From Oscillospiraceae bacterium (GTDB lineage Bacteria; Bacillota; Clostridia; Oscillospirales; Ruminococcaceae): 64,000 nucleotides of DNA. How positions within the stretch are numbered: the stretch's first letter is position 1; each line of letters opens with the position of its first letter. The stretch lies in contig CAAGCE010000241.1 of assembly GCA_900768245.1 (NCBI GenBank), positions 7,187-71,186 of the forward strand, written 5' to 3'. A model generated the notes under the pieces. That model was given only the letters and a program-made list of their open reading frames with translations. It searched no databases and was not told the DNA's origin. Below are positions 3,991-39,510 of the stretch, piece after piece. The position numbers and the translations under genes are program-made.

Positions 3991-4056
3991 TATTTTTATT
4001 TTTTGGCGGCGGCATTGGGTACGCTGTGAACTGTAAGTTGTCCTGCCGCCGCGGTC
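3991..4056 (+). repeat. Solo copy of palindromic intergenic element family: T-tract + GGCGGCGGCATT - 28 nt - GCCGCCGCGGTC
   Basis: Conserved 12-mers at 4005-4016 and 4045-4056 are shared with two further copies at 16515-16566 (+) and 16612-16663 (-); the spacer is exactly 28 nt in all three. Confidence 0.55.
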
Positions 4057-5636: not shown

Positions 5637-5666
5637 TAAAACTTTTTGGAAAGGAAGCAAAAGCTT

Positions 5667-7649
5667 ATGATAAATTTTAAAAAGACAGCAGCTTTTCTGA
5701 CAGCGATAATTTGTGTGATGTCAATGTGTTCCTGCGAAAAGGGGCAGACGGAAAGTGAAGAAACACAGCAGAGCAGCATAACTGTTATGACCGATGCGGA
5801 ACAGGCTAACGATAGTGATGCATCTGATAATGCTATAACAAAAGAAGATAGATATGAAGAAAAAACAGATGATTCGGATAATGAAGAAACTGCTTCTTCC
5901 GATAATTCCGATGAAGAAGTAAGTGCTGTGGAAGAAGCTTTGGTCAAAGCAGAGGAAACAACGGTAACTGCGGCTGAGCAAACCAAAAAGAATGCAGTGA
6001 TCTTTGACGGAAATAAGATAACATATTCTGGTAAAGACGCAAAAATAAACGGCAGTACGATAACCATAACATCATCGGGTACATATTATTTCAGCGGAAG
6101 TCTTTCAGACGGTCAGATAATCGTTGATTCCGACGATGACGGTACAGTAAACCTTGTGCTGAACGGAGTCGATATAACCGGCTCGAACAACGCTCCAATA
6201 TATATTGCAAATGCGGAAGAAACGGTAATTACACTTGCCGACGGCAGCAAAAATATTCTTACAGACGGTTCGACACGTTCAGATGAAGAAATAACAGGTG
6301 CATTATACAGCTCAGACGATCTCACTCTGACAGGCAGCGGCTCGCTGACCGTTACAGCAAACTATAATGACGGTATCGTATGCAAGGATACACTTAAAAT
6401 AATCAGCGGAAGCTATACGGTAAAAAGCGCAGATGACGGAATTATCGGCAAGGACTGCATTATTATAGCAGGCGGCACATTTAATATCAACGCAGAGGGC
6501 GACGGCTTCAAATCCACAAATGACTCCGATACCTCCCTCGGATATATTGCAGTTTCAGACGGTACATTCAACATTACAGCAGGTGCGGACGGTATGCAGG
6601 CTGAAACAAATATCCTTATAGAAAATGGCACATTTACAATAACAACAGACGGCGGAAGTGCAAAAGCTTCAAAGAAGAATGATTTCGGCGGCAGTTCATC
6701 ATCAGAGGATACTTCATCTGCTAAGGGTCTAAAGGCAGGCAGTACAATTACTGTCAAAAACGGCATATTTACTTTTGATACCCTTGACGATTCTGTACAT
6801 TCCGATTTCAAGGTCAATATCTCAGGCGGAACATTTAATATTTCATCCGGTGACGACGGTATCCATTCTGATGAAGTGCTTAATATAAGCGGCGGAAAAA
6901 TAACCGTATCAAATTCATATGAGGGACTTGAAGCGTCGGAGATCACAGTAAGCGGCGGCACAATAGACATAACGGCATCTGACGACGGTATCAATGCAGC
7001 GGGCAAAAATGATGTTGAATCTTTTTTTGATATAGGAAGTTCTTCAAATAACAACATTCTTACGATAAGCGGAGGAATTGTGAAAGTTGATGCCTCGGGT
7101 GACGGACTTGACGCTAATGGTTCTATATATATTACAGGCGGCGAGGTTTTCGTAAACGGTCCTGAAAATGACGGAAATGGAGCATTGGATTATAACAATA
7201 CTTTTGAAATAAGCGGCGGCATTTTAGTATGCGTAGGAAGTTCGGGAATGGCACAGTCACCGTCATCTTATTCAGAGCAGTCATTTGTTGCGACCAATAA
7301 TGTTTCAGGCTCGGCAGGCAGCGTTATAACTGTAAAGGACAGCAGCGGAAATGAGATATACAGCTATACTGCATCAAAAAAATTTGCATCAGTCGTATTT
7401 TCATCATCAAAAATAAAATCGGGAGAAAGCTATACTGTATCGGTTGACGGCAGCAATGATGTCACAGTAACAGCGGGAACAGAGCTTGGCGGCTTTGGTG
7501 GTTTTGGCGGCGGTCCAAGAGGTGATTTTGACGGTGATCCTCCGGATAATAATTTTGGCGGAAATGGTACTCCTCCCGACAACAATTTCGGCGGTAACGG
7601 AACTCCTCCTAATTTCCAAAATAAAAGAAATGACGCAGCTGTACAGTAA
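5667..7649 (+). CDS. Lipoprotein with acidic linker and Cthe_2159-like parallel beta-helix carbohydrate-binding domain, Gly-rich repeat tail
   Basis: Signal peptide with lipobox (VMSMC); D/E/S-rich low-complexity segment; then ~20-25 aa periodic repeats (TLTGSGSLTV, ITAGADGMQA, ISGGTFNI, ISGGKITV...) typical of Cthe_2159 / right-handed beta-helix family; C-terminal GGFGGFGGG and duplicated DNNFGGNGTPP. Confidence 0.6.
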   Translation: MINFKKTAAFLTAIICVMSMCSCEKGQTESEETQQSSITVMTDAEQANDSDASDNAITKEDRYEEKTDDSDNEETASSDNSDEEVSAVEEALVKAEETTVTAAEQTKKNAVIFDGNKITYSGKDAKINGSTITITSSGTYYFSGSLSDGQIIVDSDDDGTVNLVLNGVDITGSNNAPIYIANAEETVITLADGSKNILTDGSTRSDEEITGALYSSDDLTLTGSGSLTVTANYNDGIVCKDTLKIISGSYTVKSADDGIIGKDCIIIAGGTFNINAEGDGFKSTNDSDTSLGYIAVSDGTFNITAGADGMQAETNILIENGTFTITTDGGSAKASKKNDFGGSSSSEDTSSAKGLKAGSTITVKNGIFTFDTLDDSVHSDFKVNISGGTFNISSGDDGIHSDEVLNISGGKITVSNSYEGLEASEITVSGGTIDITASDDGINAAGKNDVESFFDIGSSSNNNILTISGGIVKVDASGDGLDANGSIYITGGEVFVNGPENDGNGALDYNNTFEISGGILVCVGSSGMAQSPSSYSEQSFVATNNVSGSAGSVITVKDSSGNEIYSYTASKKFASVVFSSSKIKSGESYTVSVDGSNDVTVTAGTELGGFGGFGGGPRGDFDGDPPDNNFGGNGTPPDNNFGGNGTPPNFQNKRNDAAVQ

Positions 7650-11386: not shown

Positions 11387-12034
11387 ATGCAGCATTTTAA
11401 GTATATATTTTTTGATTTGGACGGTACTATATTCAATTCCGAAGCAGGCATAAGTAAATCGGTAAAATATGCCCTAAGTAAGTTCGGAATAGATGAAAAT
11501 GATGAAAACAAGCTTAAAGCCTTCATAGGACCGCCGCTTAAAGATTCGTTTATGAAATATTACGGTTTTTCCGAGCAGCAGGCAAGGGACGCTATAAAAT
11601 TTTATCGTGAATATTATTCGGTCAAAGGCATTTTTGAGGGACACATATATAATAATGTTGAAAAAATACTGGCATATATTAATGAAAGGGGCAAAAAGGC
11701 TGTTCTTGCTACTTCCAAACCTAAATTTTTTGCCGAGCAGATAATTGAACACTTGGGACTTACAAAGTATTTTGATTTTATATCAGGTGCAACGCTTGAT
11801 GAAACTGTCACAGGAAAATATGAGGTCATTAAAATCGCAATTGATGAAGAAAAAATTGATGACCTGTCAAGTATTTTAATGGTAGGCGACAGACTGCACG
11901 ACGTTGAGGGTGCAAAAAAAGCAGGGATAAAGTGTGTCGGGGTTTTGTATGGCTTCGGTTCTGAATCGGAGCTTCGTGAGGCGGGTGCCGATCATATTAT
12001 TTCAGATGCGTTTGAACTTGCGGATATAATTTAG
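11387..12034 (+). CDS. HAD-IA family hydrolase (phosphatase)
   Basis: FDLDGTIFNS motif I, S/T motif II, K..GDRLHD motif III-IV; aaggagg RBS. Confidence 0.75.
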   Translation: MQHFKYIFFDLDGTIFNSEAGISKSVKYALSKFGIDENDENKLKAFIGPPLKDSFMKYYGFSEQQARDAIKFYREYYSVKGIFEGHIYNNVEKILAYINERGKKAVLATSKPKFFAEQIIEHLGLTKYFDFISGATLDETVTGKYEVIKIAIDEEKIDDLSSILMVGDRLHDVEGAKKAGIKCVGVLYGFGSESELREAGADHIISDAFELADII

Positions 12035-15207: not shown

Positions 15208-16461
15208 ATGAAAAACAGCTACAAAAATTATGAAAAGGAACAGCTTATCAGCATAATTATAATTGTTGTTTCGCTGTTGGTTTTTGGCGGCTTTATAGTG
15301 TATTTTCTTGTGCTGGGAGGAAATAATGATACAGTCAAAACCGAAACGATGCCTAATATAGTCGGATATAGCCTTAACGACGTCGAGGGCTGTTACAGCA
15401 GGTTTTTTACCCTTGATGTTGAGGAAGAGTATTCCGATTATGACAGCGGAGTGATCTTATCACAGAGCATTGCGGAAAATGAAAGCTATGTCCCGGGTGA
15501 TACGGTTGTAAAGGTCGTTGTAAGTGCAGGAAAAAAGCCGCAGGAAACTGCTGCCGTGACCGAAGAAACAACTACCGCCGCAGCAGAGCCTGAAAGGGTT
15601 CTTGAAACAGGTCTTATAGTGGAAAATCCCACAATGGAATTTGAATATATGTCGCAGGGCGAGGCTCTCAGCGTGTCAACAATAGGTGTTGACACGGATA
15701 AAGAAGAAATGAGCGCAGCACTTGACGAGCTTTACAGAGTCCTCGTAAAAAGGGGAGGGGACGCAGGATTTTTGTATGTTGACCTTGAAAGCGGCGCAAG
15801 CGTTGAGTATAATGCCGATGAAAAGTTTTCGTCAGGAAGCATTATAAAAGCACCCTATGCAAGAGCGGTCCTCGGTCAGGAAAAGGACCTTGAAAAAAGC
15901 TTTGAAATGACAGAGGATATGCTTAATTCACAGTATGAGCTTATTGACGATAAGCCTGTCGGAACGGAGTTCACGATAGAAGAGCTTGTGAATGCGGCTA
16001 TAACCAAAAGTGACAATACGGCATATAAAATGCTTTATAATTATGTTGGTTACGATTGCTTCAATGAGCTTGCCGAAACCTTAAACCTTCCGCAGCAGAT
16101 GACCGACGATAATTATTGGTTCAGACTAACAGCCCGTCAGACCGCAATTTATTTTAAAGATATATACTATTTTAATGAAGAGCATCAGAACGGAGCATTT
16201 CTCCGCAAATGCCTTGAAAACACTGAGAGCAACGACCTTTTTGCAGATGAGCTTACGGAATATGAGGTATGTGAAAAGTACGGCTATCTGCCGCAGGAAG
16301 ATTTCTATACCCTTGGCGATGCGGCAGTAGTTTATGCTGATTCGCCGTATATCCTCGTTGCATATGTCAGGGGTACAGGTTCAACTCTTAACACGCAATT
16401 TTTCCATGATACCGCAAGATGTGCGGATAATATTCACAAGCTTCTGCATAGTGAGGATTAA
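15208..16461 (+). CDS. Membrane-anchored PASTA-domain protein fused to class-A beta-lactamase-fold serine hydrolase domain
   Basis: N-terminal TM; PASTA-like block MPNIVGYSLNDVEG...VVKVVVSAG; then SxxK (SGSIIKAP) and SDN (KSDNTAYK) motifs of penicillin-recognising serine enzymes. Confidence 0.6.
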   Translation: MKNSYKNYEKEQLISIIIIVVSLLVFGGFIVYFLVLGGNNDTVKTETMPNIVGYSLNDVEGCYSRFFTLDVEEEYSDYDSGVILSQSIAENESYVPGDTVVKVVVSAGKKPQETAAVTEETTTAAAEPERVLETGLIVENPTMEFEYMSQGEALSVSTIGVDTDKEEMSAALDELYRVLVKRGGDAGFLYVDLESGASVEYNADEKFSSGSIIKAPYARAVLGQEKDLEKSFEMTEDMLNSQYELIDDKPVGTEFTIEELVNAAITKSDNTAYKMLYNYVGYDCFNELAETLNLPQQMTDDNYWFRLTARQTAIYFKDIYYFNEEHQNGAFLRKCLENTESNDLFADELTEYEVCEKYGYLPQEDFYTLGDAAVVYADSPYILVAYVRGTGSTLNTQFFHDTARCADNIHKLLHSED

Positions 16462-16468
16462 CAGATCG

Positions 16469-16510
16469 GACTGCTGCATTTTATATTGCGGCAGTCCTTT
16501 TATTTTTTAT
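16469..16510 (+). terminator. Rho-independent terminator (ggactgctgc...gcggcagtcc + TTTTaTTTTTT)
   Basis: 10-bp stem (1 mismatch) with long T-tract. Confidence 0.6.
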
Positions 16511-16566
16511 TTGGGGCGGCGGCATTAAGCTTGCTGCGATTTCGGGGATTGCAAGCCGCCGCGGTC
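16505..16566 (+). repeat. Palindromic intergenic element copy B1 (GGCGGCGGCATT-28 nt-GCCGCCGCGGTC), + orientation
   Basis: 12-mers at 16515-16526 and 16555-16566, preceded by T-tract; same family as 3991-4056. Confidence 0.55.
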
Positions 16567-16611
16567 GTTACTGCCCTGCGTGACCGGACATAAAAGTCCC
16601 GACAATGTTTC

Positions 16612-16680
16612 GACCGCAGCGGCAAGACGATTTACGATTTAAGCATAATTTAATGCCGCTGCCAAAATAAAAAAATAAAA
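16612..16680 (-). repeat. Palindromic intergenic element copy B2, inverted orientation (minus-strand reads T-tract + GGCAGCGGCATT-28 nt-GCCGCTGCGGTC)
   Basis: Reverse complement of 16612-16680 reproduces the family consensus with a compensatory C>A / G>T pair in the two arms. Confidence 0.55.
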
Positions 16681-16687
16681 AGCTGCC

Positions 16688-16722
16688 GCAGTCTGATGAA
16701 ATGACCGCAGCAGCCGTATTTG
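16688..16722 (-). terminator. Terminator of queF operon (minus strand): imperfect 11-bp stem followed by U-run on minus strand
   Basis: ctgccgcagtc/gaccgcagcag stem; forward A-run 16671-16681 gives U-tract on minus strand. Confidence 0.4.
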
Positions 16723-16725
16723 ATT

Positions 16726-17223
16726 TTATCTGTTATCAACTTTTTCAGGGTACATATCGTGATTTGCCATTCTGTCAAAGGCAATTTTTTCCCAGCAAGT
16801 ACCTTTTCTGCCATAGTTGCAGTATGGGTCGATGGAAATGCCGCCTCTCGGAGTAAATTTGCCCCAGACCTCAATGTATTTCGGATCCATAAGCTTGATA
16901 AGGTCTTTCATAATAATGTTCATACAGTCCTCGTGGAAATCACCGTGATTTCTGAAGCTGTAAAGGTAAAGCTTGAGGGATTTGCTTTCTACCATTCTGA
17001 CGTCGGGAACATATGAAATGTATACTGTTGCAAAGTCAGGCTGTCCCGTGATAGGACAAAGGCTTGTAAATTCAGGACAGTTGAATTTTACAAAATAGTC
17101 GTTATCCTGATGCTTGTTTATAAATGTTTCAAGAACCTCGGGAGCATAGTCATCGGGGTATTTTGTTTTCTGGTTCCCGAGAAGAGTGATGCCGTTAGTT
17201 TCTTCTTTGTTTCTTCCTGTCAT
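16726..17223 (-). CDS. queF: NADPH-dependent 7-cyano-7-deazaguanine (preQ0) reductase QueF (YkvM type)
   Basis: Near-identity by memory to B. subtilis QueF: [45 protein letters not shown]; start ATG at 17223 with gaaagaagg RBS (track ORF extended upstream into queC). Confidence 0.85.
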
Positions 17224-17239
17224 AGGTGTGCCTTCTTTC

Positions 17240-17923
17240 TTATTCATATTTAAGCGGGTCGGTTGTGCCGTTTGCTTTAAATGCAGCGATCCTGTCAATG
17301 CAGGTTCCGCATACACCGCATGGTTTATCGTGTCCTTCATAGCAGCTCCATGTGAGCTCATACGGAACTTTAAGTGCAAGACCTGTTTTGACAACTCCTG
17401 CTTTGCTCATACCGACAAAAGGAGCTTCGACCTTTACCTGACGTCCGCTTCCTTCGTATATTGCAGTGTTCATAGCATTTGTGAAAACCTCCGAGCAGTC
17501 GGGGTAAGCGTTTCCTGCCGCATCATCAGCGTGTGCTCCGTAAAGGATAATATCACAATGCTTTGAGATAGCAATGCTTGCCGCAGATGCAAGGAAAAGT
17601 CCGTTTCTGAATGGCACATAAGTGGAAACAGGTGTACCGTCTGTTTTTTTCAGCTGTTCAGCGTAGCTTTCGTGAGGTACTTCCGCATCGGAGTGGCTTA
17701 AAAGTGAGCAGTCCGAATATTGGAACATTGCCGAAAGGTCAAGCTTTATCATTTCAACTCCGTAATAAGCTGCGATTTTGTCTGCCGCTTCAATTTCCTT
17801 TGTGTGCTTCTGACCGTATGAAACGGAAAGTGCAACTACATTATCCTTGCCGTATCTGTCGATAGCCAAAGCAAGGCAGGTAGTGCTGTCAACGCCGCCG
17901 CTGAATAAAACAAGTGCTCTCAT
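17240..17923 (-). CDS. queC: 7-cyano-7-deazaguanine synthase QueC
   Basis: [20 protein letters not shown]-loop N-terminus and C-terminal Zn-binding CGVCGTC cluster; gagaaagga RBS. Confidence 0.9.
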
Positions 17924-18068
17924 AAATAATATCCTTTCTCTTAACCTGTTTTCACAAGCATATGCACACATCTTTTTGGCAAATTTTGACGCAACCTGCG
18001 GATCTTTGCCTTGTCTGCAACAAAATTATGCTCGAAAACCCGCACACATTTCTTATGAAGACAGGTTC

Positions 18069-18659
18069 TTATTTCATTAGTAAAAATAATTTATTCTGTA
18101 ATGCCGCATCAGTTCCGAAACGTCCTCTCAGAGTCGTTGAAACAGTCTTTGCAGACGGTTTCTTTATACCTCTTGCAGTCATACAGCTGTGGCTTGCTTC
18201 AATAAAAACCGCAACGTCATCAGAGCCTGTTGCGATCTGCATTATCTCGGCAATGTCAGAACCGATACGCTCCTGAAGCTGCAAACGCTTGGCAGCCATA
18301 TCAGCTATTCGTGCGATCTTTGAAAGCCCGAGAACCTTGCCGCACGGAATATAAGCAACCGATACTTTCATATCATACATTAATGCCATATGATGCTCAC
18401 AGTACGAAAATACTTCAATGTCCTTTACAAGAACGATGTCATTTTCCTTGTTTTCGGAAAATCCGTCCTCAAATGACTTGTTGAACATTTGGGCAATTTC
18501 CTCATTTGAATACTTCATTCCTTCAAAAACTTCACCGTACATTTTAGCAACACGTTCAGGTGTTTCTTTAAGTCCCTCTCTGTCAGGGTCATCACCGAGA
18601 GCGATAAGAATACCTCTGATATGTTCTTTTATTGCTTCGTAATCAAATTCCTTTTTCAC
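18069..18659 (-). CDS. folE: GTP cyclohydrolase I FolE
   Basis: [12 protein letters not shown] and CEHHM motifs; 196 aa. Confidence 0.9.
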
Positions 18660-18671
18660 TTTACGATCTCC

Positions 18672-19340
18672 TTATACCCCACGTTTGTCAGGATCCCATA
18701 TAAACTTGTGCAGCTGAAGCTGCATATTGATGCCGTTCATTTTATTTCTTATCATAAAATCAACGATTTCCGACGGTTCGATCCTGCCGAAAACAGGGCT
18801 GAAATAAACGGGGCATTTTTCCGCAAGCTTATATTTCTCAATTATCTCCTTGGCTTTTTTTAAGTCATCTTCCGAGGATACAACAAATTTAACAGTATCA
18901 CGTCCGTCAATAATATCATAATTTTCGGTAAGCATAAATTTTTCCATACCGCTGCCTGCTGTTTTATAGTCGAGTGTAAATGACGGTCTGTTGGGAATAT
19001 CCGCAAGATCGGCAATGCTTACACTTCCGTTGGTCTCAATTTCAATATGTAAATTTTCATCGGATGCAAGTTCCGCAAGAAGCAGCTTTATTTCAGGCTG
19101 TATAAGAGGCTCACCGCCTGTCAAGGTCACATTCTTTACATCGGTGCTTGAAATGTAGGAATGAATGTCCTTTTCCGTCATAAGCTCATAGGGAGCACTT
19201 TTTTGATTTGCCCACGTTGTATCACAGTATGAGCAGTTCAGATTACAGCCCTGAAAGCGTACAAAGACTGCCAATTGACCTGCAAGTCTGCCTTCGCCGT
19301 TAATGCTTATAAATTTTTCTGCAACTTTATATTCTGCCAT
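18672..19340 (-). CDS. queE: 7-carboxy-7-deazaguanine synthase QueE (radical SAM)
   Basis: CNLNCSYCDT radical-SAM cluster motif near N-terminus; aagaggt RBS before ATG 19340. Confidence 0.85.
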   Translation of the reverse strand: MAEYKVAEKFISINGEGRLAGQLAVFVRFQGCNLNCSYCDTTWANQKSAPYELMTEKDIHSYISSTDVKNVTLTGGEPLIQPEIKLLLAELASDENLHIEIETNGSVSIADLADIPNRPSFTLDYKTAGSGMEKFMLTENYDIIDGRDTVKFVVSSEDDLKKAKEIIEKYKLAEKCPVYFSPVFGRIEPSEIVDFMIRNKMNGINMQLQLHKFIWDPDKRGV

Positions 19341-19356
19341 ATTAAATAACCTCTTA

Positions 19357-19776
19357 TTATTCTGAGTAAGCTGCACAGTTGTTCGGTGTTTCGTAAACAG
19401 TCATCAGCTTTACATCGTATCCCTTGCTTTTCATAATGTCATAAAAGTATTTTGAGAAATTTTCTGCTGTCGGACGGAAATCAACTTCAATAAGATCAAA
19501 GTTTTCCGATTTGAGTGCGGCAACGGTTTCAGGCTTAAGAGTGTTTTTTTCATAAATGAAAGCGTGGTCAAAGCTGTCTGCAAGCTTTTTAAGGTCTGAT
19601 TTCAGGTCACCGAAATCAACTATCATACCTCTGCATTGACCGTCGGAAATAAGCTTTTCACTCATTACCTCAATTTCAAGCTTCCATCTGTGACCGTGGA
19701 GATTTGAGCATTTTCCGTTATATCCCGAAAGAAAATGAGCACTGTCAAATGCAGCTTCTGTTTTTAAAATATACAA
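19357..19776 (-). CDS. queD: 6-carboxy-5,6,7,8-tetrahydropterin synthase QueD
   Basis: C..HGH Zn-binding motif (CSNLHGHRW); TTG start with aggggg RBS. Confidence 0.8.
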   Translation of the reverse strand: MYILKTEAAFDSAHFLSGYNGKCSNLHGHRWKLEIEVMSEKLISDGQCRGMIVDFGDLKSDLKKLADSFDHAFIYEKNTLKPETVAALKSENFDLIEVDFRPTAENFSKYFYDIMKSKGYDVKLMTVYETPNNCAAYSE

Positions 19777-22107: not shown

Positions 22108-22190
22108 TTATTTTTCGGAGTGCTTGCGGCAGAAGCATTGCCGACATAAATTTAAAATAACATTTTTTATGCCGGGAAAAGGAGTATATT

Positions 22191-35398: not shown

Positions 35399-36460
35399 AT
35401 GTACGAGTTAAATGATAAACTGAAAAAAATCGAAGCATATGATCCGATCGAGGGCAGCTATAACATACGTCTTGATGCCAATGAATCCTGCTTCAATATA
35501 AATGATGTTCTCGGCGATAGAATTTCCGAAGCAATAAAAAAAGTTGCCCTGAACCGTTACCCTGACCCTATGGCAAAGGGTGCAGTAAAGGCTTTTTCCG
35601 AGCTTTATAATGTACCTGAAAAGTATATTACCGCAGGAAACGGTTCTGATGAGCTTATCAGTATTATTTGCGGCAGCTTTCTTGAAAAGAAAGATAAGGT
35701 GCTTACTCTTTCTCCTGACTTTTCAATGTATGCCTTTTACAGCGGACTTTATGAACTCAAAGTTGAAACCATGCATAAGGACGGCTCACTTAAAATAAAT
35801 GTTGCTGATGTGATTGAATACTGCAACAATAATGATATAAAGGCTGTTATTTTCTCAAATCCGTGTAATCCGACTTCACTTGGTCTGAAGCGTGAAGATG
35901 TTATCAGGCTTATAAAAAGTGTATGCTGTCTTGTTATAGTTGATGAGGCATATATGGATTTCTGGGATCAGAGTATCCTTGATGAAGTTGGCAATTATGA
36001 TAATCTTATCATTCTTAAAACCTGTTCAAAGGCATGGGGACTTGCTGCGATCCGTTTTGGCTTTGCAGCAGCTTCCGAAAAGATAACAGGTGCATTGAGA
36101 GCAGTTAAATCACCATATAATACTGACTCTGTTTCTCAGGCAGTAACAGAACTTGTTCTTTCCGAAAAAGAGCTGCTTAATGACTATTGTGCAAAGATAG
36201 TTGAAAGCAGAAAAGAGCTTCAGGCAGCACTTGAAAAGCTTGCTGAAAAATATACCGTTCTTGAAAGAGTTTATGATTCGGTTACAAACTTTATATTTAT
36301 AAAAACTCCTGCCGCAAAGGAGATCCACAGCAAGCTGCTTGAAAAATCAATTGCAATAAGATGTATGGGTGCATATATCAGAATTTCCGCAGGTACTAAG
36401 GAAGAAAATGCAGCAGTTATAGCTGCACTTGAAGATATTCTGCCGCAGGTGAAAAACTGA
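35399..36460 (+). CDS. hisC: Histidinol-phosphate aminotransferase
   Basis: Class-II aminotransferase; PLP lysine in CSKAWG context. Confidence 0.85.
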   Translation: MYELNDKLKKIEAYDPIEGSYNIRLDANESCFNINDVLGDRISEAIKKVALNRYPDPMAKGAVKAFSELYNVPEKYITAGNGSDELISIICGSFLEKKDKVLTLSPDFSMYAFYSGLYELKVETMHKDGSLKINVADVIEYCNNNDIKAVIFSNPCNPTSLGLKREDVIRLIKSVCCLVIVDEAYMDFWDQSILDEVGNYDNLIILKTCSKAWGLAAIRFGFAAASEKITGALRAVKSPYNTDSVSQAVTELVLSEKELLNDYCAKIVESRKELQAALEKLAEKYTVLERVYDSVTNFIFIKTPAAKEIHSKLLEKSIAIRCMGAYIRISAGTKEENAAVIAALEDILPQVKN

Positions 36461-39209: not shown

Positions 39210-39332
39210 TAATTATTTAATTGTGTAACTTTTTTGACCTCCTGTGAATAATATATATTGAAGTTTTAAGGAAGTTATACTAATCTTTAATCGTTCTATA
39301 GACAAAGCCGACAGATGAAATAATTCCAATTA

Positions 39333-39368
39333 AGTCACTGTGTGGACTTTAGTCACTGCGTGTACTTT
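39333..39368 (+). repeat. Tandem 18-nt direct repeats AGTCACTGTGTGGACTTT / AGTCACTGCGTGTACTTT (plus degenerate third copy to ~39386) upstream of Cys-rich gene
   Basis: Head-to-tail repeat with 16/18 identity; followed by a 5-bp hairpin cgggc-ttgtc-gcccg at 39385-39399. Confidence 0.5.
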
Positions 39369-39510
39369 GAAAAGCGACTGCAGGCGGGCTTGTCGCCCGT
39401 CAAAGGAGATTGACGCAGAGTGGGATTATTTCAGCCAAGGATTTGTCTATGGGTTGATTAAAGATTAGTATTAAATTCCTTTGCTTTAGTATATTCATAG
39501 GAGGATTTTT

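What the first reader, a model, noticed from the sequence alone, without database searches (positions are those of the whole stretch)
16505..16680. Inverted doublet of a novel GC-rich palindromic element (REPIN-like) between convergent genes, with compensatory arm mutations
Two copies of the same element sit head-to-head in a 260-nt gap between the terminators of the PASTA/beta-lactamase-fold gene (+) and queF (-). The + copy reads T-tract + GGCGGCGGCATT - 28 nt - GCCGCCGCGGTC (16515-16566). The reverse complement of 16612-16663 reads T-tract + GGCAGCGGCATT - 28 nt - GCCGCTGCGGTC. The 5' 12-mer core (GCGGCGGC / GCAGCGGC) is the reverse complement of the 3' core (GCCGCCGC / GCCGCTGC). In the second copy a C>A change in one arm is matched by G>T in the other. 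That is covariation preserving an 8-bp stem. The spacer differs in sequence but is exactly 28 nt in every copy, including the solo copy at 3991-4056. The organisation is a singleton plus an inverted pair able to form a larger hairpin. That resembles REP/REPIN or BIME elements mobilised by RAYT transposases, or a structured sRNA or protein-recognition site. It does not behave as an intrinsic terminator: the U-tract lies 5' of the hairpin in the element's own orientation.
Basis: seen in the sequence. Interest (0 to 1): 0.65.

Follow-up and report, generated by a model that had tools for sequence, protein, structure and literature searches.

The report
Terminator-side palindromic repeat element family
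The head-to-head pair of GC-rich hairpins between two converging genes is real, and it is one copy of an undescribed family of non-coding palindromic repeats that sit beside gene ends in an uncultured human-gut bacterium; it is most likely selfish DNA resembling REP/REPIN or MITE elements, not a terminator or an RNA gene.

Summary
The window holds three exact copies of GGCRGCGGCATT-N28-GCCGCYGCGGTC where none is expected by chance, and two of them sit head-to-head at 16498-16683 between the terminators of a PASTA/beta-lactamase gene and queF. A spacer-tolerant metagenome scan found 25 more copies, all in human-gut contigs and all with exactly 28 nt.

The "spacer" is not arbitrary: it is diverged homologous sequence. 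The real unit is about 72 nt: a conserved 17-nt T-rich tract, an 8-bp (GGC)n stem closing a 31-nt loop, then GGTCG. Units come in two end types (A and B). Inverted pairs of units bound non-coding elements from 185 nt to about 1 kb long, with modular interiors.

Related species have a 42-47-nt empty site at the same gene junction, and 16 of 40 units abut a host terminator stem. There are compensatory stem changes, but few. The loop carries no extra structure. No Rfam, phage or plasmid match was found, and no RAYT/IS200 homologue, target-site duplication or strain-level presence/absence polymorphism.

Best reading: a lineage-specific, now fixed, REPIN/BIME/MITE-like repeat family whose mobiliser is unknown. 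It is a new variant of a known kind, of moderate interest.

The parts
15208..16461 (+). PASTA + beta-lactamase-fold (serine hydrolase) gene, 417 aa; the left neighbour
   Evidence: Pfam PF13354 and PF03793; the called product is 417 aa in strain contigs
16468..16497 (+). Host intrinsic-terminator stem-loop of the + gene (GGACTGCTGCA-TTTTATAT-TGCGGCAGTCC). Its U tract is supplied by the repeat's T tract.
   Evidence: Terminator scan. The stem uses the species' common CTGCSGCAG terminator motif.
16498..16514 (+). T-rich tract of unit 1; a conserved outer part of the repeat unit
   Evidence: Conservation begins at -17 from GGCGGCGG across 40 units; nhmmer unit hit 16498-16570
16515..16566 (+). 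Core of unit 1 (type A): 5' arm 16515-16526, 28-nt spacer 16527-16554, 3' arm 16555-16566. An 8-bp GC stem closes a 31-nt loop, followed by GGTCG.
16567..16611 (.). Central linker between the two units, with a small central hairpin GGAC-ATAAAA-GTCC (16586-16599). It corresponds to the variable, modular interior of longer family members.
   Evidence: Sequence; comparison with other doublets and long elements
16612..16663 (-). Core of unit 2 (A-like variant GGCAGCGGCATT...GCCGCTGCGGTC) carrying the compensated G-C to A-T stem pair
16664..16681 (-). T-rich tract of unit 2 (reads as an A tract on the + strand)
   Evidence: nhmmer unit hit 16679-16609
16682..16715 (-). Host terminator stem-loop of queF (GGCTGCTGCGGTC-ATTTCATCA-GACTGCGGCAGC on the - strand). 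Unit 2's T tract follows it directly.
   Evidence: Read from the sequence; hairpin detection
16726..17223 (-). queF (165 aa); the right neighbour, convergent with the + gene
   Evidence: Pfam PF14489; gene call in L132
3989..4057 (+). Solo unit (type A variant) between mntP and a VTC-domain gene. Present in all 10 strain contigs examined.
   Evidence: No significant remnant of a partner lies downstream.

Best explanation
The doublet is the shortest, two-ended form of a lineage-specific, multi-copy, non-coding palindromic repeat family in an uncultured human-gut Oscillospiraceae species. Each end is a unit of about 72 nt: a 17-nt T-rich tract, then an 8-bp GGCGGCGG/CCGCCGCC stem closing a 31-nt loop, then GGTCG. 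Two units in inverted orientation (commonly one type A and one type B) bound elements of 185 nt to about 1 kb, whose interiors are mosaics of small hairpin modules. As single-stranded DNA the whole element can fold into one long hairpin. The family spread (inferred) as selfish, trans-mobilised DNA. It settled in transcriptionally quiet spots just beyond intrinsic terminators, often so close that its T tract now serves as the terminator's U tract. The copies are now fixed in the species and exchange sequence by gene conversion. Shown: family membership, architecture, insertion relative to related species, terminator-side location, absence of coding capacity. Inferred: mobility, and its mechanism. 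The mechanism could be a hairpin-plus-tag-recognising single-strand (HUH/RAYT-like) enzyme, with GGTCG/CGAC as the tag, or a transposase that binds terminal inverted repeats. Neither enzyme was found.
For: There are three exact copies in the window against none expected. A metagenome scan that allowed spacers of 20-36 nt returned 25 matches in 24 human-gut contigs, and every one had a 28-nt spacer. By contrast, chance matches in GC-rich genomes show spacer lengths spread across 18-40 nt. An nhmmer search with a unit profile found 45 units at E<=1e-4, falling into two end types. Inverted pairs of units bound elements of 185-990 nt (L112, L110, L120, L117, L109). The long interior is multi-copy, and contigs often end inside it. 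It is non-coding: the ORF starting at its conserved ATG varies from 7 to 86 aa. The orthologous PASTA-queF gap in two related species is 42-47 nt with a single hairpin, against 264 nt here, and no units were found in about 80 kb of those species. 16 of 40 units abut a terminator-type stem, against 4 expected and a maximum of 9 in shuffles. About 25 of 45 units have their T tract facing the 3' end of a co-oriented gene within about 100 nt. The stem is 94.7% paired, with 3 pairs (5 cells) changed on both sides; 0 of 500 shuffles reach this. The doublet folds as one hairpin as ssDNA (z = -4.8). At orthologous loci in two strains, the loop or the linker has been replaced while the flanks stay about 99.5% identical, which indicates gene conversion between copies. 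There is no Rfam, phage, plasmid or viral-contig match.
Against: No transposase of any kind is associated with the units. No Y1/RAYT/IS200 homologue was found in the 667 kb held, and no protein recurs next to units. No target-site duplication is visible. No presence/absence polymorphism was seen among strains: the solo copy is present in 10 of 10 contigs and the doublet in every strain contig examined (L132 plus its 4 similar contigs, and L122). Recent mobility is therefore unproven. The near-invariance of the GC stem and T tract, and the placement next to terminators, could instead reflect a host function. Only one species has been sampled, and the empty-site comparison is with species only 68-72% identical in the neighbouring protein.
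Confidence: 0.65

Rival explanations
1. Host-serving cis-element. On this reading the units are protein-binding or architecture sites, like E. coli BIMEs that bind IHF or gyrase, or terminator 'extensions' that supply a long U tract and a GC clamp. They would insulate convergent or tandem transcription units and be kept by selection rather than by selfish spread.
For: The T tract and GC stem are extremely conserved across 40 units. Units are enriched directly after terminator stems and at gene 3' ends. Copies are fixed in all strains examined. The two GC half-sites keep a constant spacing.
Against: Related species manage the same gene junction with a single 42-47-nt terminator and no unit. 24 of 40 units are not next to any terminator stem. 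Interiors are mosaic and vary in length from 45 nt to about 850 nt, which is hard to reconcile with one defined function. In neither orientation is the hairpin followed by a U tract.
Confidence: 0.17
2. Structured RNA. On this reading the units, or the long elements that carry them, are genes for a multi-copy non-coding RNA, or are RNA processing or stability signals.
For: An interior hairpin of the long element shows two compensatory pair swaps (CTCC...GGAG versus CCTC...GAGG) among 8 copies. The stem of the unit shows a few compensatory changes. The long interior contains a long hairpin followed by a T run on the opposite strand.
Against: No Rfam family matches, at gathering or permissive thresholds. 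The loop has no excess structure (mean z = -0.04 over 40 units). No promoter-like site exceeds chance in the doublet. In the doublet, both units lie beyond terminators and so should be little transcribed. The same covariation is expected for ssDNA hairpins of a mobile element.
Confidence: 0.08
3. Chance GC-rich terminator fragments, or a locally duplicated terminator; not a repeat family at all.
For: The flanking terminators share a GC-rich motif (TGCGGCAG) that is common in this genome.
Against: Shuffles give 0 matches. Twenty-five further copies at unrelated loci have identical arms and identical spacing. Conservation extends over about 72 nt, including the T tract.
Confidence: 0.01

Closest known systems
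REP / REPIN elements mobilised by RAYT (Proteobacteria; Bertels & Rainey 2011, PMC3116915; Di Nocera et al. 2013, PMC3733652)
   Same: They are short, GC-rich, imperfect palindromes in intergenic regions at gene 3' ends. They occur as singletons and as inverted dimers that can fold into one long hairpin. A conserved tetranucleotide lies next to the stem. The stem is 8-9 bp, as in CGTC-type REPs. Heterodimers of two unit types occur. Copies are inherited vertically and are fixed.
   Different: The tag here is CGAC (GGTCG), not GTAG or CGTC. The loop is 31 nt, against 2-20 nt. A conserved 17-nt T tract is part of the unit. Elements can reach about 1 kb with modular interiors. The host is a Firmicute. 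No RAYT was found.
BIMEs (bacterial interspersed mosaic elements) of E. coli
   Same: They are mosaics of two palindromic unit types in alternating orientation, joined by a small set of alternative linker motifs, and they lie after gene ends.
   Different: The sequences are unrelated. BIME units are 35-40 nt with short loops. BIMEs have known protein partners (IHF, gyrase, Pol I; stated from my own knowledge), and none is known here.
BOX elements of Streptococcus pneumoniae (Croucher et al. 2011, PMC3049150)
   Same: They are a Gram-positive, non-coding, modular repeat whose two different end modules are mutually complementary, with a variable middle. No cognate transposase is known.
   Different: BOX modules (boxA, boxB, boxC) are unrelated in sequence. 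BOX has no T-tract/GC-stem unit and no documented preference for abutting terminator stems.
MITEs / foldback elements (for example Correia; also the 196-nt TIR MITE in this same window at 39273-39468)
   Same: They are non-autonomous, non-coding, bounded by inverted ends, multi-copy and intergenic.
   Different: No target-site duplication is seen. The ends are 72-nt structured units with a T tract of variable length rather than short, precise TIRs. No autonomous partner was found. No strain polymorphism was seen, whereas the window's true MITE is polymorphic.
Terminator-targeting mobile elements (group IIC introns; the IS200 left-end terminator hairpin)
   Same: They lie immediately next to an intrinsic-terminator stem or T tract.
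   Different: No group II intron signal was found (Rfam). The elements here are far smaller, palindromic and lack an ORF. IS200-family ends carry hairpins in direct orientation, not inverted.

Membership tests
REP/REPIN (RAYT-associated) | Short (20-40 nt) imperfect palindrome with a 5-13 bp stem and a 2-20 nt loop | tested here: not met
   The stem is 8 bp (within range), but the loop is 31 nt and the core is 52-54 nt. Ranges are from PMC3733652.
REP/REPIN (RAYT-associated) | Conserved GTAG (or CGTC) tetranucleotide at one end of the palindrome | tested here: not met
   The conserved flank is GGTCG, which is CGAC on the other strand, in 36 of 40 units. No GTAG or CGTC is present.
REP/REPIN (RAYT-associated) | Inverted doublets with conserved organisation that can fold into one long hairpin | tested here: met
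   Doublets occur in the window and in L112/L124, L114/L119/L127, L110 and L116. The whole-doublet hairpin has z = -4.8 as DNA and z = -8.6 as RNA for the full gap.
REP/REPIN (RAYT-associated) | A cognate single-copy RAYT (Y1 HUH transposase) gene flanked by the repeats | tested here: inconclusive
   No hit with E<0.8 to IS200 TnpA or E. coli RayT was found in six-frame ORFs of the 667 kb held. The query sequences were recalled from memory. The whole genome is not available.
REP/REPIN (RAYT-associated) | Tens to hundreds of copies per genome, mostly extragenic | tested here: met
   45 units were found in the loci held. Unbiased density is 3 units in about 79 kb, which extrapolates to roughly 100 per genome. 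All are intergenic.
MITE (TIR-type non-autonomous transposon) | Terminal inverted repeats | tested here: met
   The elements are bounded by inverted 72-nt units of types A and B.
MITE (TIR-type non-autonomous transposon) | Target-site duplication flanking the element | tested here: not met
   The sequences outside the T tract and A tract of complete elements show no direct repeat. The exact termini are blurred by T runs of variable length.
MITE (TIR-type non-autonomous transposon) | Presence/absence polymorphism, or an autonomous partner sharing the ends | tested here: not met
   All strains carry the window's copies. No unit pair encloses a transposase. An empty site was seen only in other species.
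Intrinsic (Rho-independent) terminator | GC-rich stem-loop followed directly by a U tract on the transcribed strand | tested here: not met
   The T tract is 5' of the stem on one strand, so the stem is followed by an A tract on the other. The true terminators are the separate flanking hairpins.
Known structured RNA family (Rfam 15) | Match to a covariance model at the gathering score | tested here: not met
   Only tRNA, FMN and T-box hits were found, and all lie elsewhere. Nothing matches at the units or the long elements, even at E<=10.

The most novel reading that the evidence does not exclude
The units are the ends of a new kind of mobile or semi-domesticated element that docks onto intrinsic terminators. 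Its T tract would replace the terminator's U tract. Its (GGC)n stem plus GGTCG tag would be recognised by an enzyme that is not a RAYT or IS200-type transposase and is not yet identified. The long modular interior, with hairpins that show covariation, would be a functional single-stranded DNA or RNA intermediate. This would be a REPIN-like replicator system in Firmicutes with its own mobilisation chemistry and possibly a role in shaping termination.
Probability: 0.12. Interest if true: 0.7.

Novelty: new variant of a known kind. Interest (0 to 1): 0.42.

Why it matters
REP/REPIN-type palindromic repeats are characterised almost only in Proteobacteria. A distinct family in an uncultured gut Oscillospiraceae, with a large-loop hairpin, a built-in T tract, two end types and modular interiors, would extend the known range of such elements. 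It would offer a system for asking what mobilises them when no RAYT is present.

There are also practical consequences. These repeats break metagenome assemblies. They mimic or modify terminators, so they can mislead terminator and sRNA predictors. They mark intergenic sites where gene conversion between copies generates local hypervariability between otherwise near-identical strains.

Tried and rejected
1. The single genome-contig scan used a pattern without the T tract.
2. Rfam searches at gathering and permissive thresholds, over the window and 15 loci, found nothing relevant.
3. I tested whether the 28-nt loop hides a conserved inner helix. An inner 7-bp helix exists in some A units, but across 40 units the loops fold no better than shuffled loops (mean z = -0.04), and RNAalifold keeps only the outer stem.
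4. I tested for a small hydrophobic peptide or type I toxin encoded in the long element. The ORF from the conserved ATG varies from 7 to 86 aa between copies, so this was rejected.
5. I looked for a degraded partner unit downstream of the solo copy at 4005. Alignment scores fall within the shuffle range, so this was rejected.
6. I asked whether the terminator hairpins flanking the doublet are part of the repeat. They are not: conservation stops 17 nt upstream of the stem. Their mutual similarity comes from a motif (TGCGGCAG / CTGCSGCAG) that many free-standing terminators of this species share.
7. No RAYT/IS200 gene and no recurrent neighbouring protein were found.
8. Searches of phages, plasmids and viral contigs gave no match.
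9. No strain-level presence/absence of units was found across about 85 kb of syntenic strain contigs.
10. Literature searches found no description of this family.

Full report
**Observation**

The window holds exactly three matches to GGCRGCGGCATT-N28-GCCGCYGCGGTC, even with three mismatches allowed: 4005-4056 (+), 16515-16566 (+) and 16612-16663 (-). None appeared in 100 dinucleotide shuffles. The two 12-mers share an 8-bp complementary core. In the third copy a G>A change in the 5' arm is matched by C>T in the 3' arm.

The pair at 16515-16663 lies in the 264-nt gap between a PASTA/beta-lactamase-fold gene (15208-16461, +) and queF (16726-17223, -). Each gene has its own terminator stem-loop: 16468-16497 and 16682-15 on the - strand, i.e. 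16682-16715. The T-rich tract of the adjacent repeat follows each stem directly.

The whole gap folds as one long imperfect hairpin (RNA z = -8.6). The doublet alone does the same as DNA (z = -4.8).

**It is a family**

My first public scan, of genome contigs, used the arms alone. It returned only chance matches from contigs of at least 53% G+C, with spacers spread evenly over 18-40 nt. This was useless for finding relatives but serves as a null.

A metagenome scan then added the A/T-rich flank and still allowed spacers of 20-36 nt. It returned 24 contigs with 25 matches. All are human-gut assemblies and every spacer is exactly 28 nt. One contig (L122) carries the same doublet as the window, so at least that sample holds the same species.

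A unit profile searched with nhmmer found 45 units at E<=1e-4 in the window plus these contigs, which collapse to 41 distinct sequences.

**Anatomy of the unit**

Conservation starts 17 nt upstream of GGCGGCGG, within the T-rich tract (consensus about TTTTTTATTTTTATTAG). It runs through the 3' arm to GGTCG. The "spacer" is alignable between copies, with nearly invariant TTTGCTGTRA, so its constant length mainly reflects common descent: 36 of 40 units have the same length and 4 are one base shorter.

There are two end types:
- Type A: GGGCGGCGGCATT...ATAGCAAGCCGCCGCGGTCG
- Type B: GGGCGGCGGTTTGA...GAAACGTTTCCGCCGCGGTCG

Only the outer stem is a consensus structure. Its 8 pairs are 94.7% paired, and 3 pairs (5 cells) are changed on both sides; no shuffle out of 500 reaches this. 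The stem is mostly simply invariant.

The 31-nt loop folds no better than shuffled loops (mean z = -0.04 over 40 units).

**Anatomy of the elements**

Units occur as inverted pairs, commonly one A and one B, with T tracts outward and GGTCG inward. The pairs are 185-190 nt apart in the window, L112/L124 and L114/L119/L127. They are 247 nt apart in L110, 767 nt in L120, about 920 nt in L117 and 990 nt in L109. There are also single-ended long copies such as L111.

The long interior (about 530 nt) is a mosaic of small hairpins and A-rich linkers. It is present in many copies, and contigs frequently end 60-200 nt inside it. It is non-coding: the ORF from its one conserved ATG is 7-86 aa long in different copies. 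One interior hairpin shows two compensatory pair swaps among eight copies.

The window's doublet is thus the minimal two-ended form of this family.

**Location**

About 25 of 45 units have their T tract facing the 3' end of a co-oriented gene within about 100 nt (the ORF calling was crude). In 16 of 40 units a terminator-type stem ends exactly where the T tract begins, against 4 expected and a maximum of 9 in shuffles.

Free-standing terminators of this species have only 4-6 T after the stem. In the abutting cases, therefore, the repeat's own T tract stands where the U tract should be. In neither orientation is the repeat's GC stem followed by a U tract, so the unit is not itself a terminator.

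**Insertion and history**

The neighbouring PASTA protein has homologues named as from Oscillospiraceae MAGs. In two related species (72% and 68% protein identity) the same PASTA-queF junction is 47 and 42 nt long, with a single shared hairpin. About 80 kb of those species and a third one contain no unit.

Within the species, the solo copy is present in 10 of 10 strain contigs. The doublet is present in every strain contig examined: L132, which stands for 5 contigs carrying the gene, and L122. No extra or missing unit was seen in a further roughly 45 kb of syntenic strain sequence.

By contrast, an unrelated 196-nt TIR MITE at 39273-39468 is polymorphic among the same strains. The family therefore expanded after the split from those relatives and is now fixed.

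Copies still exchange sequence. At one locus (L112 versus L124) the flanks are about 99.5% identical but the loop differs at 10 of 28 positions, and resembles another subfamily. At another locus (L113 versus L120) the linker module differs.

**What mobilises it**

This is unknown. No protein recurs next to units. No unit pair encloses a transposase. phmmer with IS200 TnpA and E. coli RayT, both recalled from memory, found nothing at E<0.8 in six-frame ORFs of the 667 kb held. No target-site duplication is apparent.

The unit, the doublet and the long element have no match in Rfam, phage or plasmid records or viral contigs.

**Comparison with known families**

The closest analogues in organisation are REP/REPIN and BIME. 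These are GC-rich palindromes with an adjacent conserved tetranucleotide, singletons and inverted hetero-dimers, a location at gene 3' ends, vertical inheritance, and a whole dimer that folds as one hairpin.

Membership fails on tested features. REPs carry GTAG or CGTC tags, and have stems of 5-13 bp and loops of 2-20 nt (PMC3733652). This unit has CGAC, a 31-nt loop, an integral T tract and interiors up to about 850 nt. A RAYT could not be shown.

MITE membership fails on target-site duplication, an autonomous partner and polymorphism.

Pneumococcal BOX elements (PMC3049150) are the nearest Gram-positive parallel: modular, with two different complementary end modules and no known transposase. 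They are unrelated in sequence.

**Verdict**

The REPIN-like interpretation is right about the kind of thing this is and wrong or untested on the family's defining features. The terminator and sRNA readings are not supported.

The best explanation (confidence about 0.65) is a lineage-specific, fixed family of selfish palindromic repeats lodged beside terminators. A host function in termination or insulation, or in protein binding, remains a live rival (about 0.17).

This is a new variant of a known kind, of moderate interest.

Noticed in passing
window 39273-39468: A 196-nt insertion lies between hisE and a 296-aa gene. It has 13-bp perfect terminal inverted repeats (CTAATCTTTAATC / GATTAAAGATTAG). 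It is present in the window, L138 and L139, and absent in L140, L141, L142 and L147. It is a classical MITE that is polymorphic among strains and unrelated to the GC-hairpin family.
   Followed up: partly
window-wide, e.g. 16487-16494, 16683-16690, 22125-22132, 36309-36316; also L110 2930-2960 and 4420-4450, L131 5210-5245: The 8-mer TGCGGCAG (CTGCCGCA on the other strand, often within the quasi-palindrome CTGCSGCAG) occurs 15 times in the window against 1.65 expected. It appears in coding regions and, as an inverted pair, forms the stems of many intrinsic terminators of this species. This pattern is reminiscent of DNA uptake sequences, or of a second, very short repeat.
   Followed up: partly
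L112 6093-6144 versus L124 3078-3129 (same locus, two strains): The flanks are about 99.5% identical over about 1 kb, but the 28-nt loop of the A unit differs at 10 positions and matches another subfamily. The T and A tracts differ by 7-8-nt indels. This is local hypervariability, apparently from gene conversion between repeat copies.
   Followed up: partly
L111 1637-2290; L109 7380-8369; L117 870-1787; L120 2959-3725: A long (about 530-990 nt), multi-copy, non-coding modular element begins with the unit. It contains a conserved long hairpin (GCGCAATGCAG...CTGCATTGCGC) and AAGCAAA-type short tandem repeats. One hairpin shows compensatory swaps. Contigs often break inside it. Whether it is transcribed is unknown.
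   Followed up: partly
window 5646-7649 (Cthe_2159-family gene); L098, L104 and L105 at 11465-11965: In three strain contigs the 660-aa Cthe_2159-family gene is replaced by a 166-aa gene call. This is a deletion polymorphism of about 1.5 kb among strains.
   Followed up: no
L133 7556-12991 versus window 16726-19776: In a related species (72% identity in the PASTA protein) the queuosine operon queF-queC-folE-queE-queD is interrupted by extra genes (an acetyltransferase, AAA-type ATPases and a PNPOx-like gene) that are absent from the window's operon.
   Followed up: no
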